A DNA stretch of 64,000 nucleotides from an uncultured Methanosarcinales archaeon (lineage in GTDB: Archaea; Nanobdellota; Nanobdellia; Woesearchaeales; GW2011-AR9): contig CAYSWQ010000003.1 in assembly GCA_964434885.1 (NCBI GenBank), forward strand, positions 6,882-70,881. Reading direction: 5' to 3'. Each line of letters opens with the position of its first letter. Positions within the stretch are counted from its first letter, which is position 1. Under the pieces are notes generated by a model that saw nothing but the letters and a program-made list of their open reading frames with translations, had not been told where the DNA came from and made no database searches. Made by a program: the position numbers and the translations under genes. Of the stretch, positions 2,646 to 14,606 are shown piece after piece.

Positions 2646-2953
2646 TCTGTTTCACCTCCAATATTTTTATCATTTGAGAATAAATTTCTAAAACCAACAA
2701 CTTCGGGTGGGTCAAGTCTTTCGATTTTAGTTTCAGTTTTTAGTTTGGTTTTTGTTCTTCTGAAACGTCTTGGTTTTAACTTGTAGTAAATCAAGGCAAT
2801 TGACAAGTAAATAAATAATACAAAAACCCCTAACAACATCATGACAACTAAGCCTAACTTGTTCATCCCTAATTCATAAGAAAAAATAAGACTTAAAGGT
2901 AAATAAATACAAAGAAATGCCAAACTAACAATTAATTCTTTTGCTGCGTTCAT
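2642..2953 (-). CDS. Small 2-TM membrane protein with basic cytoplasmic tail (VirB3-like size and topology)
   Basis: Two N-terminal TM helices, then KPRRFRRTKTKLK. Start overlaps the methyltransferase stop (ATGA). Confidence 0.4.
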   Translation of the reverse strand: MNAAKELIVSLAFLCIYLPLSLIFSYELGMNKLGLVVMMLLGVFVLFIYLSIALIYYKLKPRRFRRTKTKLKTETKIERLDPPEVVGFRNLFSNDKNIGGETE

Positions 2954-3879
2954 TTTGATTCAACCTCTATGATTTGTTTAGCAATGGCTTCCGCCATCAA
3001 GGGCGGAACAGCATTGCCAATTTGTTTAACCATGTCATTTTTAGGACCACAGAATTCAAAACTATCAGGAAAACTTTGTAATCGAGCAAGTTCACGAGGT
3101 GTTAAGAACCGGTGATAGAAAGGATGAATATAGATCGGACTAGTGACTATAGTCTTACTTTGTCCGTAAGCATAAAGTCTACACCTACAGAAATTAAAAG
3201 TCTTGGACAATCTTCCGCCTTGAGGCAAACATTTGATTTTAGATAAAATTTCAGGAGAAGTATTAAACCAAACATGCCCATTCAAGCCATTTGGTCTTAA
3301 AGGCAAATCTCCGATTGCTTCAATTACGGTTTTCTTCTTACCAAATGGTTTAGGAAACAAATCTAATTTCTTAGCAATGATGATAACTCGTTCACGATTT
3401 TGAGGAACCCCATAATCTGCAGCATTCAAAATTCGGTAACTTACAGAATAATTTAACTTGATTAGTTCGTGAATAATCTTGTTAATAATTTTCTCTTGAT
3501 CATAATCTTTCATTGATAAAATTCCAGTAACATTTTCAATCACCACAATCTTGGGTCTAATAATACTAACAATCCGAAGAAATTCTTTGTACAACTGGTT
3601 TCTTTTATCTTTGGGATTTCTTTTTCCACAGATAGAAAACCCTTGGCATGGTGGACCACCAACAATAATGTCAACTTTACCTTTCAATTCAGAAAGTTCT
3701 TTACTGCCGATACTGGTTATGTCTGCACAAAAGCACTGTGATCCAGGGTGGTTTTTAAGAAATGTTGTTACTGCTGGCTTCCACCATTCCACACAACCAA
3801 GGATGTTGCAACCTGCTCTTTGAAAACCATGACTAAACCCACCGCAGCCTGCGAACAGGTCGAGAACATTTAATGTCAT
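2950..3879 (-). CDS. DNA (cytosine-5)-methyltransferase
   Basis: Motif I LDLFAGCGG. Motif IV GGPPCQGFS. Motif VI ENV. Motif X QIGNAVPP. 309 aa. Confidence 0.9.
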   Translation of the reverse strand: MTLNVLDLFAGCGGFSHGFQRAGCNILGCVEWWKPAVTTFLKNHPGSQCFCADITSIGSKELSELKGKVDIIVGGPPCQGFSICGKRNPKDKRNQLYKEFLRIVSIIRPKIVVIENVTGILSMKDYDQEKIINKIIHELIKLNYSVSYRILNAADYGVPQNRERVIIIAKKLDLFPKPFGKKKTVIEAIGDLPLRPNGLNGHVWFNTSPEILSKIKCLPQGGRLSKTFNFCRCRLYAYGQSKTIVTSPIYIHPFYHRFLTPRELARLQSFPDSFEFCGPKNDMVKQIGNAVPPLMAEAIAKQIIEVESK

Positions 3880-4446: not shown

Positions 4447-4474
4447 AGTGGACAAGTGGACAAGTGCAGGTAGA
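4447..4474 (+). promoter_or_regulatory. Tandem direct-repeat promoter element GTGGACAA-GTGGACAA-GTGCAGGTAG immediately upstream of a TATA-like box (hef promoter)
   Basis: Sequence aaGTGGACAAGTGGACAAGTGCAGGTAGaatatataaata. Near-identical elements at 12782-12808 and 14578-14606, each abutting a TATA-like box. Confidence 0.5.
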
Positions 4475-4514: not shown

Positions 4515-6713
4515 ATGTTAAAAGATTTTACTCCTCGTTTGTATCAGCAAACTATTTTAGGAACGATTGTGAGAAAGAACACCTTAGTAGTTTTACCAAC
4601 TGGAATGGGAAAAACAGCATTAGCTTTTATGTTAGCGGCGCAAAGATTGAGGCAATATCCAAATTCTAAAATATTGTTGTTGGCCCCAACTAAACCTCTT
4701 TGTGAACAGCACAGGAATAGTTTTCGAAAATACTTAGATATTGAAGAAGAAAGAATTGTTTTATTTACTGGACATGTTAAGCCGGAAAAGAGAGCAGAAT
4801 TATGGAAAACTGCCCAAGTGATTATTAGTACTCCCCAAGGTTTGGAAAATGACATCATCAATAGAAAAATTGATTTGAGAGAAGTTAGTTTGTTAACTTT
4901 AGATGAGATCCATCATGCTACAGGAGATTATAGTTATGTGTGGGTTGCTAAACAATATGTTAAAATGGCTAAATTTCCACGGGTTTTGGGTTTAACTGCT
5001 TCTCCTGGTTCAGATATGGAAAAGATTAAAGAAGTTTGTCAAAACACATATATTGAAGAAGTTGAAGTTAGAACCAATAAAGACCCAGATGTTAAACCTT
5101 ATGTTCAAGAAGTGAAACAAGAATGGGTCAAAGTGAATTTACCTCCAGAGTTTGTGGAGATTAAGAAATTTTTAGAGGATTGTTATAAAAGTAAATTGAA
5201 ACAAATTCTAGAGTTGGGTTATTGTAATCATATAGGTTTAAATAAAATTGAGTTGATTAAATTACAAGGTCATTTGCAAGGAAGAATTTCTAGAGGAGAA
5301 AGAGAAATGCCAATTTTAAAATCGGTTTCTTTGTTAGCGGAAGCATTGAAAGTTCAGCACGGTTTAGAATTGTTAGAAACCCAAGGAGTAAAAGCAGTGT
5401 TTTCTTACTTAAATCGGTTACAAAAAGAATCTTATTCTACTAAAGTGAAAGCAGTTCGTAATTTAGCTAGAGATGTTAATTTTAAATCGGCCTTGGTTTT
5501 GGTCAATAGTTTGGTTGAGAAAAAGATTGAACATCCCAAATTAACTAAATTAAAAGAACTAGTTAGAGAAGAAGTGAAGAGAGATGATGCACGAATAATT
5601 ATCTTTACTCAATTTAGGGATTCTGGTTCTGAGATTGTGGAAGAATTAAATAAAATTGAAAATGTGATGGCCCAATTATTTGTGGGACAAAGTAAAAAAA
5701 GTGGTACTGGATTAAGTCAAAAAAAACAAAAAGAAGTTCTGGATGATTTTCGAGAAGGGCAGTTTAATATCTTGGTGGCTACTTCAGTAGGAGAAGAAGG
5801 CCTAGATGTCCCTTCAGTAGATTTAGTAATTTTTCATGAACCAGTTCCTAGTGCGATTAGAACTATTCAAAGAGCAGGAAGAACTGGTCGTTTAGAAAAA
5901 GGAAGAGTTATGGTCTTGATGACTAAAGGAACAAGAGATGAAGGTTATCGTTGGAGTGCTTTTCATAAAGAAAAAAGAATGTATGGTGATTTGGAAAAGA
6001 TCAAAAAAGGTTTTTCTTTGAAAGAAAACCCAATAGTTACTTTAGAAAAATTCATCCCAAAAGAACAAGAAGTTTTGATTTTAGCAGACCATCGAGAAAA
6101 AGGAGGAAGAGTAGTCAAGGAATTAATTGATTTGGGAATTAATTTAGAATTAAAACAATTAGAAAGTGCAGACTATATCTTAAGTGGTCGGGTGGGGGTA
6201 GAGAAAAAAGGAATTTATGATTTTGTATCTTCAATAGTTGATGGCAGATTGTTGGAACAAGTTAAATATTTAAAACAAAATTTTGAAAAATGTTTGGTGG
6301 TCGTGGAAGGAGAAGAAGATATTTATTCTGTCCGGAAAGTTCATGCTAATGCAATACGTGGGATGTTGGCGGCAATTACTATTGGATATGGGGTTCCTGT
6401 TTTATATACTAAAAATGCTAAAGATACAGCCGGCCTTTTATCTGTTATTGCTAAAAGAGAGCAGGACAAAGGCAGAGATTATTCTTTGCATGAACGTAAA
6501 CCAATTTCTTTGAAAGAACAGCAAGAATTTATTGTTTCTGCTTTTCCTGGAATTGGTTTGAACACAGCAAAGATTTTGTTGGAACATTTTGGAAGTGTTG
6601 AAAAATTAGTTGGTTCTTCTTTAGCAGAATTACGAGAAATAGAAGGGATTGGAGAAAAGATTTCTTGTAAAATAAAAGAAGTTTTAGAAGCAAAATATGT
6701 TGTTGATAAATAA
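4515..6713 (+). CDS. hef: Hef: helicase-associated endonuclease for fork-structured DNA (SF2 helicase + XPF/ERCC4 nuclease + tandem HhH)
   Basis: LPTGMGKT (Walker A). DEIHHATG (DExH). HEPVPSAIRTIQRAGRTGR (motif VI). C-terminal ILADHREKGG (ERCC4 nuclease). FPGIGLNTAKILLEHFGS...IEGIGEKI (HhH2). ORF opens at 4464 but the conserved start is probably MLKDFTPRLYQ at 4515. Confidence 0.85.
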   Translation: MLKDFTPRLYQQTILGTIVRKNTLVVLPTGMGKTALAFMLAAQRLRQYPNSKILLLAPTKPLCEQHRNSFRKYLDIEEERIVLFTGHVKPEKRAELWKTAQVIISTPQGLENDIINRKIDLREVSLLTLDEIHHATGDYSYVWVAKQYVKMAKFPRVLGLTASPGSDMEKIKEVCQNTYIEEVEVRTNKDPDVKPYVQEVKQEWVKVNLPPEFVEIKKFLEDCYKSKLKQILELGYCNHIGLNKIELIKLQGHLQGRISRGEREMPILKSVSLLAEALKVQHGLELLETQGVKAVFSYLNRLQKESYSTKVKAVRNLARDVNFKSALVLVNSLVEKKIEHPKLTKLKELVREEVKRDDARIIIFTQFRDSGSEIVEELNKIENVMAQLFVGQSKKSGTGLSQKKQKEVLDDFREGQFNILVATSVGEEGLDVPSVDLVIFHEPVPSAIRTIQRAGRTGRLEKGRVMVLMTKGTRDEGYRWSAFHKEKRMYGDLEKIKKGFSLKENPIVTLEKFIPKEQEVLILADHREKGGRVVKELIDLGINLELKQLESADYILSGRVGVEKKGIYDFVSSIVDGRLLEQVKYLKQNFEKCLVVVEGEEDIYSVRKVHANAIRGMLAAITIGYGVPVLYTKNAKDTAGLLSVIAKREQDKGRDYSLHERKPISLKEQQEFIVSAFPGIGLNTAKILLEHFGSVEKLVGSSLAELREIEGIGEKISCKIKEVLEAKYVVDK

Positions 6714-10529: not shown

Positions 10530-11561
10530 ATGAGAGTTTTAGCTAGCAATAAAGAAGAACCAAAATTAGATTTGATAGATAAAAAAATATTGTATTTGTT
10601 ATCTGTTAATGCCCGGTTTTCTTATTCTACAATTGCTAAACATGTTAAATTGTCTCGAGAAGCAGTTAAACAAAGAATCAACAAATTACTAAAAAAAGAG
10701 GTTTTATTGGGTTTTCAAACTGCCATCAATCACCCAATATTAGATTATAATTCCTATCATGTTTTTTTGCAATTAAATAAACTTAACAAAAAACGAGAAG
10801 AAGAAATTGTGAAAAAATTGGGGGCCGATTCGGATGTTAATGCTTTATTAGAATACGAAGGCAAATACAATTTTGAGGTTTCTTACTTGTTAAAAGATAT
10901 TCGGGAGTTGAATACTAAATTAAAAGAATTATCTGGCCAAAGTATCAAAGACTATAATTTTTTTATTTTGTTAGATACTGTTGCTGCCCAAACTTACTCT
11001 CAATGTTTGCATAAATTAGATTTAGATGTAAAGAACATTCGACATGATGGCTCTTTTTTTGGTGATCTGAATAAAAAAAGAACTGGAAAGATAAATTTGG
11101 ATGAAAATGATAAACAATTATTGAAATTTATTAGTGAAGATGCAAGAATTAGTATGACTGAACTGGCAACTAAATTAAAATTGAGTGTAGATTCTGTAAT
11201 CTATAGAATTAAAAAATTAATTAGTTGTGGAGTAATTGTTGGTTTTCGCCCAATAATTAATTATGCTAATTTGGGATATAGTGTGTATTGTTTGTTTTTT
11301 AAATTTAAAAATTTAAATAAATCAAATGAAGACAAATTTAATTATTTCTTTAAAACTCATCCGAATGTTTTGTGGTCTGCTAATTGCCTAGGTCCATTTA
11401 ATAATATTTCTTATTTGGTTGTGAAAGATAGTTTTGAATATCACAACGTGATTAATGAAATTAGAGAGAATTTTTTTGAAATTATTGATAATTATGAAAG
11501 CTTATTGGCTTTTGCTGAATATAAGTATGGTTTCTTTCCAGGTGGGTTGTTGGAAAATTAA
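10530..11561 (+). CDS. Transcriptional regulator with two tandem Lrp/AsnC-type HTH modules
   Basis: DKKILYLLSVNARFSYSTIAKHVKLSREAVKQRINKLLKKEVLLGF and DKQLLKFISEDARISMTELATKLKLSVDSVIYRIKKLISCGVIVGF. Confidence 0.6.
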   Translation: MRVLASNKEEPKLDLIDKKILYLLSVNARFSYSTIAKHVKLSREAVKQRINKLLKKEVLLGFQTAINHPILDYNSYHVFLQLNKLNKKREEEIVKKLGADSDVNALLEYEGKYNFEVSYLLKDIRELNTKLKELSGQSIKDYNFFILLDTVAAQTYSQCLHKLDLDVKNIRHDGSFFGDLNKKRTGKINLDENDKQLLKFISEDARISMTELATKLKLSVDSVIYRIKKLISCGVIVGFRPIINYANLGYSVYCLFFKFKNLNKSNEDKFNYFFKTHPNVLWSANCLGPFNNISYLVVKDSFEYHNVINEIRENFFEIIDNYESLLAFAEYKYGFFPGGLLEN

Positions 11562-11947
11562 TAGTATTTTTCTTGCCAAATTTCAGGCAATAGTTGTTTT
11601 AGTGTGGTTTCTTTATCTTCGCTAAGAATTACTTTGGTGTTTAGATTTTCTTTATTTATTTCGTAAATCATTTCTCGGCATCTCCCACAAGGAGGCAAAA
11701 TTTTACCTTCGTTAGAAATAGCCACAATCTTATTTATCTTATATTCTTTGTTAGTCACCATATTAGCAATAGCACTATGTTCAGCACAAAAACCAATTCC
11801 ACAACAAGCAACAATACTAACTCCCAAGTAAATATTTCCTTTATCTGTAATTAAAGCACAACTAACATCTCCTATTGAAACATTTTCAGAAACTTTATTT
11901 AAATGAGATATTTCTTTTGCTTTTTTAATTAATTCTGTTGGTTCCAT
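11558..11947 (-). CDS. cdd: Cytidine/deoxycytidylate deaminase family protein
   Basis: Zinc-binding motifs CAEHSAI (H/C-A-E) and PCGRCREM (PCxxC). 129 aa. Confidence 0.75.
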   Translation of the reverse strand: MEPTELIKKAKEISHLNKVSENVSIGDVSCALITDKGNIYLGVSIVACCGIGFCAEHSAIANMVTNKEYKINKIVAISNEGKILPPCGRCREMIYEINKENLNTKVILSEDKETTLKQLLPEIWQEKYY

Positions 11948-11960
11948 TTAAAAATAATTA

Positions 11961-12049
11961 GCGCGGAGGGAGACTCGAACTCCCGATCAGAGGGTTGCAG
12001 CCTCTTGCCGTGGCCGCTTGTGGGCTTTAGCCGCTTGGCCATCCGCGCT
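11961..12049 (-). tRNA. tRNA-Cys (anticodon GCA), 89 nt, with an extra 15-17 nt insertion in the D-arm region (probable non-canonical intron)
   Basis: Reverse complement GCGCGGA...TCCGCGC acceptor stem. T-arm GGGAG TTCGAGT CTCCC. Anticodon arm AGAGG CTGCAAC CCTCT with U33, GCA, A37. The region between acceptor and anticodon stems is 36 nt instead of about 19 and contains a duplicated CAAGCGGC. Confidence 0.6.
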
Positions 12050-12742
12050 TGAGTTTAATGCGTTAATTAATCTTTGTTGCTTTATTGGATGTTCAAACCC
12101 AACATATTTAAAAAAGTTTCTGAAAGAAGATTTTTCTATATCAATATGAAGACACCTACTCCTACTACCATCTTTCCTGGTATTTAATTTAAAATGACGT
12201 ACTGGTGAAGACTTAACTCCAAACTTAGCCAACATAGATCTTAGTTGTTCAAAATATCTAATTCCAGAATCAATTAATAAACTATTCTTTGCCATTCTAA
12301 AACTTATTCTCCAACGTAATTTCTTTCCCCTAGTGATGTGTATGCTTCCTTCGTTATCAAATAATCCCCTCAAGTAAGAGCTTTGTATTTCTGGTGTGCC
12401 ATTGAAAACCCACTCGGGAACTACAAACGAATTATTGGTTTTATTTCCTACTGGAGTTCCTATCTCTTTCAAAAAAACACAGATTGGTTTTGAAATAATA
12501 AATAATTTATATCGTCTTGTGGAGTTTGGGCTTTTTTTGGAAGTGCTATCATCTACATAAATTCTTCCTTCTATTTCAAATAAATCGAAAAAACGTTGTT
12601 TGACTGCTTTTATTTCTTCTAAATTCTTTGAATAAAAAGAAGCAAGATATCTCCATTTATCAATTTGTAAATGACCATCTCCCGTTAAATCAGCTACAGT
12701 GCGAGCTAGTTTTGGATTTTTCTTTAAGTGTTGCATTTTCAA
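11987..12742 (-). CDS. Double-motif LAGLIDADG homing-endonuclease-like protein, free-standing
   Basis: LARTVADLTGDGHLQ and LRGLFDNEGSIHI motifs about 100 aa apart, Lys/Arg-rich. The last roughly 20 codons overlap the 5' part of tRNA-Cys. Confidence 0.6.
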   Translation of the reverse strand: MKMQHLKKNPKLARTVADLTGDGHLQIDKWRYLASFYSKNLEEIKAVKQRFFDLFEIEGRIYVDDSTSKKSPNSTRRYKLFIISKPICVFLKEIGTPVGNKTNNSFVVPEWVFNGTPEIQSSYLRGLFDNEGSIHITRGKKLRWRISFRMAKNSLLIDSGIRYFEQLRSMLAKFGVKSSPVRHFKLNTRKDGSRSRCLHIDIEKSSFRNFFKYVGFEHPIKQQRLINALNSSADGQAAKAHKRPRQEAATL

Positions 12743-12781
12743 TTACTACTTTAAATGCAACAAGTAAGAAAATATAAAAAT

Positions 12782-12808
12782 CCTACCTGGACTTGTCCAC
12801 TTGTCCAG
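12782..12808 (-). promoter_or_regulatory. Second copy of the tandem GTGGACAA promoter element (minus strand: CTGGACAAGTGGACAAGTCCAGGTAGG), abutting a TATA-like box upstream of the LAGLIDADG gene
   Basis: Followed on the minus strand by atttttatatttt, then the ATG at 12742 about 28 bp further on. Confidence 0.5.
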
Positions 12809-12839: not shown

Positions 12840-12979
12840 TGGACCTGAAGGGATTCGAACCCTCGATCTACAGCTTAGAAGGCTCTAGCGGGACAATTTG
12901 TCCTGTCGCCATATTTGACCCACGTTTGGGGCAAGCCCGGGAACTATGTTCCCCGTGTCCAGGCTAGGCTACAGGTCCA
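12840..12979 (-). tRNA. Intron-containing tRNA (about 140 nt; at least two insertions including a hairpin in the D-loop; isotype unresolved)
   Basis: Reverse complement GGACCTG...CAGGTCC-A acceptor. T-arm GAGGG TTCGAAT CCCTT. D-stem GCCT/GGGC interrupted by GGGGAACATAGTTCCC hairpin. About 45 extra nt between the D and T arms. Confidence 0.55.
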
Positions 12980-13046: not shown

Positions 13047-14168
13047 TTAATTAACATCTTTTAAACCCGCAGTTTCTACAAAAAAGCAAACTTCCCCGTC
13101 TGGTAAGGCAGGTGCATCTATTAACTTTGCCACTCTCGATCCTTTCTTACCTTTTCTCAAGTAAATTCGGAAAGTAGAGGCATGAGCCACAATATGTCCT
13201 CCAATAGAAGCAGTAGGATCTCCAAAGAACTGATCTGGTTTGGCCATTACTTGATTGGTAACATAAACACAGATGTTGTGAGTGTTAGCAACTTTAGCCA
13301 AGGCATGCATATGGCGATTTAATTTCTGCTGTCTTTCTGCTAACGTTCCTCGACCAATATATTCTGCTCGAAAATGAGAAGTTAAAGAATCGACTACTAC
13401 CAACATTACTTTTTTGTTTTGTTCGTTGATTAAGCTTTCTACTTTTTCAGCTAGCAACATTTGGTGGTCAGAGTTATATGCCCTAGCAACCATTATTCTG
13501 CTTAATGCATCTTCTGGATTCAAACCTGCTCCTTCTGCTAATTGGGTGATTCTTTCTGGTCGAAATGTGTTTTCTGTATCAATGTAAACCACAGTGGCAT
13601 CAGGATGAACATTTAATGTATTAACTGCAAGGATATGGCCTACTTGGGTTTTTCCAGAACCGAATTCACCAAAACATTCGGTGATTGCTCCAGTTTCAAA
13701 TCCACCTCCCATTAATGTGTTGAAGTTCTCTGAACCGGTGCTTATTTTAGATACTTGTTCTCTTTTCTTCAAAATATCCATTCCTGATTCAAAACCCATT
13801 TTCATGCTATCTCTTGCAGCATTAATCATCTTTCTAGCGACTGATTCAGAAACACCAGTGGTTTCAATCAATTCTCCAATTGTGGCAACTGCCATGGACA
13901 TCATATCTCGATAACCCGCATTGGCTAGTTTTTCGGCAGTGGCGGCCCCCACTCCTGGAAGGTCCTGGAGAGTGGGTTCTTTTTCAATCTCTTTATTGGG
14001 AGTTAGTTCTAAATTTTTTGTTGTTTTTTCTTCAGTGGTTGGTTTAGGTGTTGTTTCTGGTGTTGATTCTGATACTTGTTCTAATGTTGTTTCTGTGTTT
14101 TCAGTATTTGGTTCTGAATTTTGTTCTAAAATTTCAGTGGGTTCTTCAATTATTTTTTCTTTGGTCAT
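13047..14168 (-). CDS. radA: DNA repair and recombination protein RadA
   Basis: N-terminal HhH LQDLPGVGAATAEKLANAGY. Walker A GEFGSGKTQ. RecA-fold core. C-terminal SRVAKLIDAPALPDGE. Unusual roughly 60-aa T/E/P-rich N-terminal extension. Confidence 0.9.
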   Translation of the reverse strand: MTKEKIIEEPTEILEQNSEPNTENTETTLEQVSESTPETTPKPTTEEKTTKNLELTPNKEIEKEPTLQDLPGVGAATAEKLANAGYRDMMSMAVATIGELIETTGVSESVARKMINAARDSMKMGFESGMDILKKREQVSKISTGSENFNTLMGGGFETGAITECFGEFGSGKTQVGHILAVNTLNVHPDATVVYIDTENTFRPERITQLAEGAGLNPEDALSRIMVARAYNSDHQMLLAEKVESLINEQNKKVMLVVVDSLTSHFRAEYIGRGTLAERQQKLNRHMHALAKVANTHNICVYVTNQVMAKPDQFFGDPTASIGGHIVAHASTFRIYLRKGKKGSRVAKLIDAPALPDGEVCFFVETAGLKDVN

Positions 14169-14179
14169 CTTGCTTTCCT

Positions 14180-14467
14180 CTATTGTGCTTTGAATAGTTC
14201 TTGTTCTTTAAGAACTAAATATTCATAAGCTTTCTGTAACACAATACTTGCTTTTGGCAAGTCATTTATTCTTAAAGAATTGGTGTTTTGCCATTCGCCT
14301 TTTTCATCTTTGTAACAACGATCCAGACTTATGGTTCGATATTCGACTGCTTCTCCGGTTTTGTTTTGGCCTTTGTTAGACCAAATAGTGGCCGAAACTG
14401 ATCCGGCACGATACTTTTTTTCAGGTGTGTTACCTGTACTTTGGTTTTGGGTATTCATTGATACCAC
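14180..14467 (-). CDS. PC4/Sub1-like (YdbC-family) ssDNA-binding protein
   Basis: YRAGSVSATIWSNKGQNKTGEAVEYRTISLDRCYKDEKGEWQNTNSLRINDLPKASIVLQKAYEYL fits the PC4 C-terminal-domain pattern (conserved W, GE..EYR.ISL.R.Y.D..G.W). Stop is 12 bp from the radA start. Confidence 0.45.
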   Translation of the reverse strand: MVSMNTQNQSTGNTPEKKYRAGSVSATIWSNKGQNKTGEAVEYRTISLDRCYKDEKGEWQNTNSLRINDLPKASIVLQKAYEYLVLKEQELFKAQ

Positions 14468-14577
14468 CTCGTTTTGCTATTCGCTTTTTATTTCAAACCA
14501 CAACCAATTTTGATTGCAGCGAGGGGTGGCCAATTGCTTGGCTACGTTTAGTTGGAGTGAGAGGTAGTTTAAATAGT

Positions 14578-14606
14578 CTACCTGGAGTTGTCCACTTGTC
14601 CACTAC
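14578..14606 (-). promoter_or_regulatory. Third copy of the tandem GTGGACAA promoter element (minus: GTAGTGGACAAGTGGACAACTCCAGGTAG) abutting TATA-like tatttaaa, about 110 bp upstream of the PC4-like/radA operon
   Basis: Same element and orientation relative to the downstream gene as at 4447 and 12782. Confidence 0.5.

What the first reader, a model, noticed from the sequence alone, without database searches (positions are those of the whole stretch)
11961..12742. Free-standing LAGLIDADG endonuclease gene whose 3' end overlaps tRNA-Cys
The 251-aa ORF has two canonical LAGLIDADG-type motifs (ADLTGDGHL and LRGLFDNEGSI). It is not inside an intron, an rRNA gene or an intein. Its last roughly 20 codons are encoded by the same DNA as the 5' half of a co-directional tRNA-Cys, and it is driven by the repair-regulon motif. 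It could be a domesticated homing endonuclease recruited to DNA repair, or a selfish element that has inserted next to tRNA genes.
Basis: seen in the sequence. Interest (0 to 1): 0.6.

Follow-up and report, generated by a model that had tools for sequence, protein, structure and literature searches.

The report
Homing endonuclease gene abutting tRNA-Cys
A real, intact LAGLIDADG nuclease gene sits directly in front of the cysteine tRNA gene of a tiny (DPANN/Woesearchaeota) archaeon, runs into the tRNA so that tRNA DNA encodes its tail and stop codon, and carries the same control sequence as the cell's recombination genes. Relatives show it is most likely a selfish, site-specific mobile gene rather than a normal repair gene.

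Summary
A 249-aa ORF lies on the minus strand at 11987-12736. It has a high-confidence two-domain LAGLIDADG fold with both catalytic acidic residues. Its last 62 nt are the first 62 nt of tRNA-Cys(GCA) (11960-12048), which itself has a 17-nt D-loop intron.

About 55 homologues, all from Woesearchaeota/Nanoarchaeota, form one family. In 16 of 19 informative loci the gene abuts or overlaps tRNA-Cys, and the tRNA often supplies the stop codon.

The gene is sporadic. Relatives with about 82% identical flanks (L026, L016) lack it and have an intronless tRNA-Cys with a canonical promoter. One copy is internally deleted (L015). Two loci keep a 3' remnant of a displaced tRNA-Cys (L003, L004). dN/dS is about 0.08.

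The "repair motif" is real. A 26-bp operator plus TATA box precedes Hef, the RadA operon and this gene. The same operator precedes RadA operons in five other genomes and this gene's homologues in at least five.

Best reading (0.65): a free-standing homing endonuclease gene resident at the tRNA-Cys 5' flank, with expression tied to the host recombination regulon. Domestication is not excluded (about 0.2). The cleavage target is unknown. It is a new variant of a known kind.

The parts
11987..12736 (-). LAGLIDADG endonuclease gene (249 aa plus stop; the mechanical ORF extends to a TTG at 12742)
   Evidence: Residues 1-230 are folded. Residues 231-249 are disordered (pLDDT below 55) and are encoded by tRNA DNA.
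12668..12697 (-). LAGLIDADG motif 1 (VADLTGDGHL); its Asp is invariant in the family
   Evidence: Alignment A1 gives D22 invariant. 51 of 55 homologues keep G[DE]G.
12341..12376 (-). LAGLIDADG motif 2 (YLRGLFDNEGSI); its Glu is invariant
   Evidence: (E131 invariant).
11960..12048 (-). tRNA-Cys(GCA) gene, 89 nt, discriminator U
   Evidence: Rfam 46.7 bits. The spliced form folds as tRNA-Cys in ARAGORN.
12014..12030 (-). 17-nt insertion (putative non-canonical intron) in the D-loop of tRNA-Cys; its register is ambiguous by up to 7 nt because CAAGCGG is repeated at both ends
   Evidence: A BHB (bulge-helix-bulge) motif was not demonstrated.
11987..12048 (-). Overlap in which tRNA DNA encodes the protein's last 20 codons and its TGA stop
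   Evidence: Tails of homologues are translations of tRNA-Cys in all three frames.
12106..12121 (-). AGAAACTTTTTTAAAT inside the ORF (codons R-N-F-F-K), a look-alike of the BRE/TATA of endonuclease-free tRNA-Cys genes; candidate embedded tRNA promoter
   Evidence: PWM score 13.0, top 4e-5 of all 16-mers. The endonuclease-free promoter consensus is AGAAAAYTATATAAAT at -42..-27. Its function is inferred.
12783..12808 (-). Operator CTGGACAAGTGGACAAGTCCAGGTAG shared with the Hef and RadA-operon promoters
12772..12780 (-). TATA-like box TTTTTATAT of the endonuclease gene
   Evidence: sequence inspection only; the transcription start is not mapped.
12729..12763 (-). Hairpin (arms 12754-12763 and 12729-12737) that pairs the start codon (12734-12736)
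   Evidence: MFE -11.1 kcal/mol, z = -3.15. Analogous SD-sequestering hairpins occur in L002-4, L030, L031 and L034.
12840..12978 (-). tRNA-Arg(UCU) gene with two putative introns (12911-12955 and 12883-12902), immediately upstream of the endonuclease gene
   Evidence: Missed by ARAGORN and Rfam. The spliced form gives a clean tRNA-Arg(tct) cloverleaf. tRNA-Arg(UCU) also lies upstream in L005, L008, L011 and L032.
14578..14603 (-). Same operator upstream of the 95-aa ORF (14180-14467) and RadA (13047-14168) operon
   Evidence: It is conserved upstream of RadA operons in L042-L046.
4448..4473 (+). Same operator upstream of Hef (helicase + ERCC4 + HhH; probable ATG at 4515, stop at 6713)

Best explanation
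This is a free-standing, monomeric two-domain LAGLIDADG homing-endonuclease gene of the intein-type lineage (PF14528). It belongs to a small family confined to Woesearchaeota/Nanoarchaeota. The family's home is the 5' flank of the tRNA-Cys(GCA) gene.

SHOWN:
- The gene replaces the tRNA's canonical promoter region.
- It abuts or overlaps the tRNA, so tRNA nucleotides supply a disordered tail and the stop codon.
- It is present in some genomes and absent from others that have homologous flanks.
- It decays in place in one lineage.
- It is linked to its own tRNA-Cys allele, which in two lineages sits next to a remnant of the displaced resident tRNA-Cys.
- It carries the operator/promoter type of the host RadA and Hef genes.

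INFERRED:
- The enzyme cuts endonuclease-free tRNA-Cys loci, somewhere between the promoter-proximal flank and the D-arm. RadA-dependent repair then copies the gene, together with its linked tRNA allele, into the break.
- Expression is limited to times when the recombination regulon is on.
- Read-through transcripts are kept untranslated by a hairpin over the start codon or SD.
- The tRNA is now transcribed from a TATA-like element inside the 3' end of the ORF, which also makes clean loss of the gene costly.
For: - Fold and catalysis.
- Family and site specificity: 55 homologues at 40-85% identity. tRNA-Cys lies directly after or overlapping the ORF in the window, L001-4, L006-8, L010, L011, L013, L015 and L030-34. 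The C-terminal tails are translated tRNA-Cys in three frames.
- Absence with conserved synteny: L016, L019, L022/25, L024 and L026 have tRNA-Cys upstream of NFACT and no endonuclease gene.
- Presence/absence: L002 and L026 have flanks 81-82% identical. The difference between them is the endonuclease gene plus a different tRNA-Cys allele.
- Remnants: L026/L016-type tRNA-Cys 3' fragments follow the endonuclease-linked tRNA in L004 (41/41 nt) and L003 (27/28 nt).
- Decay: L015 is an in-frame deletion lacking residues ~48-181 and motif 2.
- Rarity: 55 clusters, against more than 120 RadA clusters at 71% identity or more in a truncated list. About 35 clusters at 50% identity form the core family.
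- Recent common ancestry: the synonymous divergence of the gene between L002 and L004 (pS 0.54) is lower than in the flanking genes (0.76-0.79). Its GC3 is also lower (0.31 against 0.40-0.46).
- Regulation.
- Precedents: T4 SegB lies between tRNA genes; T4 also shows embedded promoters and RBS hairpins (PMC2988022).
Against: - No target site was identified.
- The mature tRNA-Cys of endonuclease-positive and endonuclease-free loci can be nearly identical (L034 vs L022, L032 vs L016). Immunity of the carrier is therefore unexplained unless the site spans the tRNA's 5' junction.
- dN/dS of 0.07-0.10 fits a host function equally well. So does amino-acid divergence roughly parallel to NFACT.
- Six assemblies of the window's species are 100% identical and all carry the gene, so no within-species polymorphism was seen.
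- A RadA-type operator conserved at the gene in several genomes is what a domesticated regulon member would also show.
- The excess of shared codons is clear for only one pair and is partly confounded by codon bias.
Confidence: 0.65

Rival explanations
1. Domesticated LAGLIDADG nuclease. The protein is a host member of the recombination/repair regulon (with RadA and Hef), for example making or processing breaks for the cell's benefit. Its position next to tRNA-Cys would be a frozen accident of an old insertion.
For: - It shares its operator with Hef and the RadA operon in the window.
- RadA-type operators stand at homologues in L001, L005, L011, L015 and L032.
- dN/dS is about 0.08.
- The catalytic residues are invariant.
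- Divergence is similar to NFACT.
- All six assemblies of the species carry it.
Against: - It is sporadic: endonuclease-free relatives have conserved flanks.
- There are far fewer clusters than for RadA.
- L015 is an in-frame dead copy.
- A strict insertion site, a linked tRNA allele and tRNA remnants are hallmarks of a mobile element.
- RadA operons in ~1-Mb contigs with no recorded family member keep the operator.
Confidence: 0.2
2. tRNA-Cys-linked helper. The protein serves the adjacent tRNA, either as a maturase-like factor for its unusual 5'-proximal introns or simply as the carrier of its promoter. It would be retained for that reason rather than for nuclease activity.
For: - 14 of the 17 endonuclease-linked tRNA-Cys genes carry introns. 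Ten of them have an intron in the first ~25 nt, against 0 of 6 endonuclease-free genes.
- A promoter look-alike lies inside the ORF at -73..-50 in most abutting loci.
- LAGLIDADG maturases exist (bI3 and I-AniI are among the fold hits).
Against: - Three endonuclease-positive loci have intronless tRNA-Cys (L013, L032, L034).
- L024 has a two-intron tRNA-Cys without the gene.
- The same genome's tRNA-Arg has similar introns, so introns look like a lineage trait.
- The catalytic residues are strictly kept.
- No maturase is known for BHB introns (my own knowledge).
Confidence: 0.06
3. The LAGLIDADG protein is itself the regulator that binds the 22-26-bp pseudo-palindromic operator (CTGGAC-N10-GTCCAG). 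It would work as a WhiA-like or I-TevI-like transcription factor controlling RadA, Hef and its own gene.
For: - The operator has the length and pseudo-symmetry of LAGLIDADG sites and sits at the gene's own promoter.
- WhiA is among the fold hits.
Against: - The operator is conserved upstream of RadA operons in 5 of 5 other genomes. These include ~0.93-1.08-Mb contigs on which no family member is recorded, while the gene is rare.
- The catalytic residues are retained, unlike in WhiA.
Confidence: 0.04

Closest known systems
Phage T4 SegB and other T4 free-standing homing endonucleases (Seg/Mob) (PMC2988022)
   Same: - It is a free-standing endonuclease ORF lodged among tRNA genes. SegB lies between tRNA-Arg and tRNA-Ile and targets the tRNA region.
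- Flanking markers are co-inherited.
- Promoters of downstream essential genes are embedded in the endonuclease ORF.
- RBS-sequestering hairpins are bypassed by a proximal promoter.
- Expression is tied to a particular host or phage programme.
   Different: - The nuclease family differs (LAGLIDADG, not GIY-YIG/HNH).
- The host is a cellular archaeal chromosome, not a phage.
- The ORF physically overlaps the tRNA, which supplies its stop codon.
- The operator is that of the host RadA/Hef genes.
- Cleavage and homing have not been shown here.
Archaeal LAGLIDADG homing endonucleases in rRNA introns and inteins (I-DmoI, PI-PfuI, TliVMA intein endonuclease domain)
   Same: - It has the same fold and the same catalytic motif pair (Foldseek E = 4e-10 to 2e-8).
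- It matches Pfam LAGLIDADG_3, the type typical of intein endonuclease domains.
   Different: - It is not inside an intron or intein: there is no Hint domain, and no BHB or group I intron surrounds the ORF.
- Sequence identity to solved structures is too low for phmmer.
Collaborative homing of a free-standing endonuclease with an endonuclease-less intron (F-CphI/psbA, mobE/I-TevIII) (PMC6083498, PMC2790892)
   Same: A free-standing endonuclease gene lies next to a gene that often carries an intron; in those systems the intron could interrupt the target.
   Different: The link between the gene and the introns is imperfect here. Three intronless tRNAs carry the gene and one intron-bearing tRNA lacks it. 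The introns are archaeal BHB-type and sit at varied positions. The hypothesis was tested here and is inconclusive.
Mobile-element-driven tRNA gene disruption in Caldiarchaeum (tRNA-Thr locus; PMC3293823) and the Randau-Soll protection hypothesis (summarised in PMC4390854)
   Same: There is population- or lineage-level heterogeneity at one tRNA locus. It combines an inserted gene, an intron-bearing tRNA copy and a leftover tRNA fragment.
   Different: The inserted gene there is a recombinase on a ~1.8-kb repeated element. Here it is a single LAGLIDADG gene, with no integrase and no repeats elsewhere in the window.

Membership tests
LAGLIDADG homing endonucleases (two-domain monomer) | Two LAGLIDADG motifs, each ending in a catalytic Asp or Glu | tested here: met
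   D22 and E131 are invariant in a 29-sequence alignment. All loci but the deleted L015 keep both motifs.
LAGLIDADG homing endonucleases (two-domain monomer) | Tandem alpha-beta-beta-alpha-beta-beta-alpha fold | tested here: met
   AlphaFold pLDDT 91.5, pTM 0.87. Foldseek hits to TliVMA, PI-PfuI, I-DmoI, I-AniI and I-SceI.
LAGLIDADG homing endonucleases (two-domain monomer) | Profile match above the curated threshold | tested here: met
   PF14528 scores 39.1 bits against a cut-off of 22.5.
LAGLIDADG homing endonucleases (two-domain monomer) | Site-specific cleavage of a long (about 18-24 bp) target in endonuclease-free alleles | not testable with these tools
   No target was identified. Remnant break points in L004 and L003 point only loosely to the 5' part of tRNA-Cys.
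LAGLIDADG homing endonucleases (two-domain monomer) | Mobility signature: fixed site, presence/absence among relatives, degenerate copies | tested here: met
   There is no within-species polymorphism.
Free-standing phage-type homing endonuclease genes (T4 Seg/Mob) | Own ORF in an intergenic slot between conserved genes, not in an intron or intein | tested here: met
   It lies between tRNA-Arg and tRNA-Cys. No Hint domain or intron was found.
Free-standing phage-type homing endonuclease genes (T4 Seg/Mob) | GIY-YIG or HNH catalytic domain | tested here: not met
   It has a LAGLIDADG fold. It works like these genes but is not a member.
Free-standing phage-type homing endonuclease genes (T4 Seg/Mob) | Promoter of the downstream essential gene embedded in the endonuclease ORF | tested here: inconclusive
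   A BRE/TATA look-alike lies at -73..-50 in most abutting loci, in the top 4e-5 to 2e-4 of 16-mers. The same bases encode the conserved R-N-F-Y-K, and no transcription start data exist.
Free-standing phage-type homing endonuclease genes (T4 Seg/Mob) | RBS or start codon sequestered in a hairpin in read-through transcripts | tested here: inconclusive
   Hairpins are predicted in 7 loci, with z from -0.7 to -4.5. Three of 6 pairs have compensatory changes in a small alignment. Transcript ends are unknown.
Domesticated LAGLIDADG proteins (WhiA-type regulators) | Loss of the catalytic acidic residues and presence throughout a clade | tested here: not met
   The residues are retained and the distribution is sporadic.
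Archaeal intron-encoded endonucleases (I-DmoI type) | ORF enclosed by an intron of an rRNA or tRNA gene | tested here: not met
   tRNA-Cys positions 1-73 all lie downstream of the ORF's conserved domain. No tRNA 5' exon lies upstream of the ORF.
Integrase-type elements that insert into tRNA genes | Integrase gene plus duplication of part of the tRNA as an att site | tested here: not met
   The segment that differs between L002 and L026 holds only the endonuclease gene and the tRNA. tRNA 3' remnants exist in L003 and L004, but there is no integrase.

The most novel reading that the evidence does not exclude
- Promoter slot and tRNA: a LAGLIDADG homing endonuclease family has taken over the promoter slot of the (probably single-copy) tRNA-Cys gene across DPANN archaea. 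It would feed the tRNA from a promoter inside its own coding sequence and end its own ORF on tRNA nucleotides.
- Timing: it would time its expression by copying the operator of the host RadA/Hef recombination regulon.
- tRNA gene disruption: its attacks on intact tRNA-Cys genes would be one force behind the unusual 5'-proximal introns and tRNA fragments seen at this locus. That would be a concrete, testable case for the idea that tRNA gene disruption is driven by, or protects against, mobile elements.
Probability: 0.15. Interest if true: 0.85.

Novelty: new variant of a known kind. Interest (0 to 1): 0.6.

Why it matters
- Free-standing homing endonucleases are well studied in phages and organelles but hardly at all in archaeal chromosomes. 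My literature searches found no description of a tRNA-Cys-linked LAGLIDADG family.
- The family offers natural filled, empty, decayed and remnant-bearing alleles of one tRNA locus. It also offers intron-bearing and intronless tRNA alleles. The question of whether mobile nucleases shape archaeal tRNA gene architecture could therefore be tested with a few cleavage assays.
- The work also uncovers a conserved operator of the Woesearchaeota RadA/Hef genes, and a selfish gene that appears to listen to it. For an uncultivated lineage with no known DNA-damage regulon, this is a useful entry point.
- For annotation: ARAGORN and Rfam miss or miscall the intron-bearing tRNAs here, and one pipeline drops the endonuclease gene altogether.

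Tried and rejected
1. Introns as immunity (collaborative homing). 14 of 17 endonuclease-linked tRNA-Cys genes have introns, against 1 of 6 endonuclease-free ones. However, L013, L032 and L034 carry the gene with intronless tRNAs. L024 has two introns, one homologous to L002's, and no endonuclease gene. The window's tRNA-Arg has similar introns. The idea is neither supported nor excluded.
2. Diagnostic substitutions in the D-arm or acceptor stem of endonuclease-linked tRNAs. None were found: L019, L016 and L022 match L002, L032 and L034 respectively.
3. ORF inside a tRNA intron or a group I intron. Rejected.
4. Viral or plasmid origin. No relatives were found in 2.9 million viral contigs.
5. 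Strain-level polymorphism. Six assemblies are identical.
6. The LAGLIDADG protein as the regulon's transcription factor. Disfavoured.
7. Sequence search of the PDB found nothing; the fold search was needed.
8. A canonical BHB around the 17-nt D-loop insertion could not be drawn by hand. It was not pursued.
9. The test of endonuclease-gene dS against flank dS is significant for only one pair, and codon bias confounds it.
10. The window operator in its exact form is absent from the first 15 loci. Relaxed and aligned forms were needed.
Full report
**What is at the coordinates**

The ORF is on the minus strand. The mechanical ORF is 11987-12742. The ATG at 12736 gives 249 aa, identical to database protein P0001. 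It matches Pfam LAGLIDADG_3 at 39.1 bits against a cut-off of 22.5.

An AlphaFold model built on 29 homologues has mean pLDDT 91.5. It shows two alpha-beta-beta-alpha-beta-beta-alpha halves. Foldseek places it with the TliVMA and PI-PfuI intein endonuclease domains, I-DmoI, I-AniI and I-SceI. A plain sequence search of the PDB found nothing. The acidic residues that close the two motifs (D in GDG, E in NEG) are invariant in the family.

Rfam finds one tRNA at 11960-12048(-) with anticodon loop CUGCAAC, which is Cys(GCA). ARAGORN calls it Leu(CAA) because a 17-nt insertion in the D-loop lengthens it. Removing CTAAAGCCCACAAGCGG gives a clean 74-nt tRNA-Cys with discriminator U. The ORF's TGA lies in the variable loop, so 62 nt are shared. 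The 20 residues encoded by tRNA DNA are the only disordered part of the model.

Just upstream, at 12840-12978(-), is a tRNA-Arg(UCU) with two insertions. Both tRNA finders missed it. The spliced form folds correctly. Neighbours are RadA (13047-14168), an RPA-like protein, a cytidine deaminase-like gene (11558-11947), NFACT and Hef. The best homologues are named Woesearchaeota or Nanoarchaeota, so the organism is a DPANN archaeon.

**The overlap is a family trait, not an accident**

55 homologues at 40-85% identity exist, nearly all 220-260 aa. A profile search of 1.84 billion representative proteins finds about 35 core clusters and 98 at E <= 1e-30.

Their C-terminal tails read like tRNA-Cys translated in each of the three frames..AKRLRQSPA....GQAAKA.., and ..PSG-stop from AGC GGC TAA of the D-loop. 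I examined 19 informative, distinct loci in DNA:
- In 16 loci the gene ends between 11 nt before and 96 nt after position 1 of tRNA-Cys(GCA). These are the window, L001-4, L006-8, L010, L011, L013, L015 and L030-34.
- In L009 the tRNA-Cys follows after about 110 nt.
- In L012, the most distant member, the gene abuts tRNA-Leu(GAG).
- In L005 the gene sits after tRNA-Arg, and a gene separates it from tRNA-Cys.

Stop codons are often supplied by U8-A9-G10 or by the D-loop TAA of the tRNA. tRNA-Arg(UCU) upstream and NFACT downstream recur in many loci.

**Selfish or domesticated?**

Evidence for a mobile, dispensable gene:
1. A scan anchored on the neighbour NFACT returned 14 loci without the endonuclease gene. 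Six tRNA-Cys genes in this setting have no endonuclease gene in front of them (L016, L019, L022/25, L024, L026, and L005's tRNA-Cys). All six carry a near-identical BRE/TATA, AGAAAAYTATATAAAT, at -42..-27.
2. L002 and L026 share 81-82% nucleotide identity on both sides. L026 has a 102-aa unrelated ORF, a promoter and an intronless tRNA-Cys. L002 has the endonuclease gene and a tRNA-Cys with different acceptor and anticodon stems and an intron. L016 has the tRNA directly after the left-flank gene, which is a clean empty site.
3. In L004 and L003 the endonuclease-linked tRNA-Cys is followed by a 3' fragment of an L026/L016-type tRNA-Cys (41/41 and 27/28 nt). In L002 no fragment is left. This looks like a cassette of endonuclease gene plus its own tRNA displacing the resident gene, followed by decay of the remnant.
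4. L015 is an in-frame deletion derivative. It lacks residues ~48-181 and motif 2, but it keeps the 3' end and the tRNA.
5. The gene is rare relative to host genes. RadA clusters at 71% identity or more already exceed 120 in a truncated list.
6. Between L002 and L004 the gene's synonymous difference (pS 0.54) is well below that of the flanking genes (0.76-0.79). Its GC3 is also lower. This suggests more recent common ancestry, although codon bias explains part of it.

Evidence for a host function:
- dN/dS is 0.07-0.10.
- Amino-acid divergence is roughly parallel to NFACT.
- There is no polymorphism among six assemblies of the window's species.
- The gene is wired into host regulation, as described below.

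I weigh this at about 0.65 selfish against 0.2 domesticated.

**The promoter motif**

The 26-bp block [C/G]TGGACAAGTGGACAA[G/C]T[G/C]CAGGTAG, followed within 1-3 nt by a TATA box, occurs three times in the window against 0.01 expected. The sites precede Hef, the 95-aa-ORF/RadA operon and the endonuclease gene.

The same element, in the form ..CCCACTGGACAAC..CGG.TAG..TATATAAA, stands upstream of the small-ORF/RadA operon in all five other genomes examined (L042-L046). Two of these RadA proteins occur on contigs of about 0.93-1.08 Mb, and no family member is recorded on a contig of those lengths. The operator is therefore a host element, and the LAGLIDADG protein is unlikely to be its regulator.

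Promoters of the endonuclease gene in L001, L005, L011, L015 and L032 align with these RadA promoters. Tandem TGGACA-type repeats occur only 7 times in about 270 kb: three in the window, three directly upstream of the endonuclease gene in other genomes (L009, L011, L015), and one elsewhere. The link to the recombination regulon therefore holds across much of the family. This fits a homing element, which needs RadA-dependent repair to spread. It would equally fit a domesticated regulon member.

**Further control features (inferred)**

A hairpin pairs the start codon in the window (arms 12754-12763 and 12729-12737; -11.1 kcal/mol, z = -3.15). Analogous hairpins cover the Shine-Dalgarno sequence in L002-4, L030, L031 and L034, with some compensatory changes.

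The TATA box lies so that transcripts from the gene's own promoter would start inside or after the 5' arm. Read-through transcripts from RadA/tRNA-Arg would contain the whole hairpin. This is the logic described for T4 I-TevI, segB and mobE (PMC2988022).

In endonuclease-positive loci the canonical tRNA promoter is gone. In its place, AGAAACTTTTATAAGT (codons R-N-F-Y-K) lies 50-73 nt upstream of the tRNA. It scores in the top 4e-5 to 2e-4 of all 16-mers against a matrix built from the endonuclease-free promoters. In the three family members that do not abut tRNA-Cys, these codons are not TATA-like. T4 provides the precedent of host promoters embedded in endonuclease ORFs that favour their retention. 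The same bases are constrained by the protein, so this remains a hypothesis.

**The target is unknown**

Remnant break points (D-loop in L004, T-loop in L003) and the replaced segment (from about -60 to the T-arm in L026 against L002) point loosely to the promoter-proximal to D-arm part of an intact tRNA-Cys gene.

Introns in the linked tRNA were tested as a possible immunity device, as in collaborative homing. The idea is not convincingly supported. Three loci with the gene have intronless tRNAs that are almost identical to endonuclease-free alleles, and one endonuclease-free locus has two introns.

**Comparison with what is known**

The gene works most like the free-standing endonucleases of T4, especially SegB between tRNA genes. 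It is not a member of those families, because its catalytic domain is LAGLIDADG.

By fold, motifs and profile it is a LAGLIDADG homing endonuclease of the intein-type lineage, but it is neither intein-borne nor intron-borne.

The locus pattern resembles the Caldiarchaeum tRNA-Thr case (PMC3293823) and bears on the Randau-Soll hypothesis (PMC4390854).

My literature searches found no description of this family or of its tRNA-Cys linkage.

**Verdict**

The feature is real and is a new variant of a known kind. Interest is 0.6.

Noticed in passing
window 12840-12978 (-): tRNA-Arg(UCU) with two non-canonical insertions: 45 nt in the D-loop (12911-12955) and 20 nt in the anticodon stem (12883-12902). 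ARAGORN missed it, and so did Rfam at its gathering threshold. The spliced form folds as a clean cloverleaf.
   Followed up: yes
window 14468-14577 (-); L042:3520-3718; L043, L045, L046 upstream of the small ORF: A ~110-nt leader lies between the RadA-operon TATA box and the ~90-aa ORF. It is conserved between genomes (..CAAGCAATTGGCCACCCCTCGC..TGAAATAAAAAGCGAATAGCAAAACGAGGTGG) and has complementary CCCCTCG/CGAGGTGG ends. It may be a structured regulatory RNA. The ~90-aa protein has no Pfam match but is always paired with RadA.
   Followed up: partly
L002:902-1621 (-), next to tRNA-Arg(UCU) at L002:815-921: A second, distantly related LAGLIDADG gene (about 25-30% identity) lies on the opposite strand, with its 3' end overlapping the tRNA-Arg 3' end. 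It is absent from the otherwise 82% identical L026. tRNA flanks may be general landing sites for such genes in these archaea.
   Followed up: partly
L044:5150-6160: Another LAGLIDADG_3 protein (336 aa, with an extra N-terminal region; 27% identity to the window protein) is encoded immediately downstream of RadA in a different Woesearchaeota genome.
   Followed up: no
L006:2985-3115, L007:4640-4830, L010:4640-4930: The 5' acceptor strand GCGAGGG occurs twice: once as the ORF's C-terminal 'MRG' codons, and again 12-33 nt later. The tRNA-Cys in these loci carries up to four insertions (after position 7, in the anticodon stem, at the canonical position, and in the T-loop in L010). It is unclear which copy is used.
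   Followed up: partly
L011:3563-4642, L013:581-1342, protein P0047: A subfamily of the endonuclease carries an N-terminal XRE-type helix-turn-helix extension (about 350 aa in total).
   Followed up: no
L036, L037 (same species as the window); L039 and L021 contig ends: The JGI gene calls omit the endonuclease ORF although the DNA is 100% identical to the window. Two independent assemblies break at or just after tRNA-Cys. This is either an annotation and assembly blind spot at this locus or a hint of population heterogeneity.
   Followed up: partly
window 2950-3879 (-): A C5 cytosine DNA methyltransferase-like ORF (309 aa; motifs FAGCGG and PPCQ) lies just upstream of, and divergent from, the Hef promoter. 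No partner restriction gene was looked for.
   Followed up: no
L002:3827-3995, L004:3747-3915, L030, L031 and L034 upstream of the endonuclease gene: A conserved ~170-nt upstream region travels with the gene in this subgroup. It contains a second long-range inverted repeat (..GCAAAACTCTTA.. / ..TAATGAGTTTYGC..). These loci lack the TGGACA-type operator.
   Followed up: no
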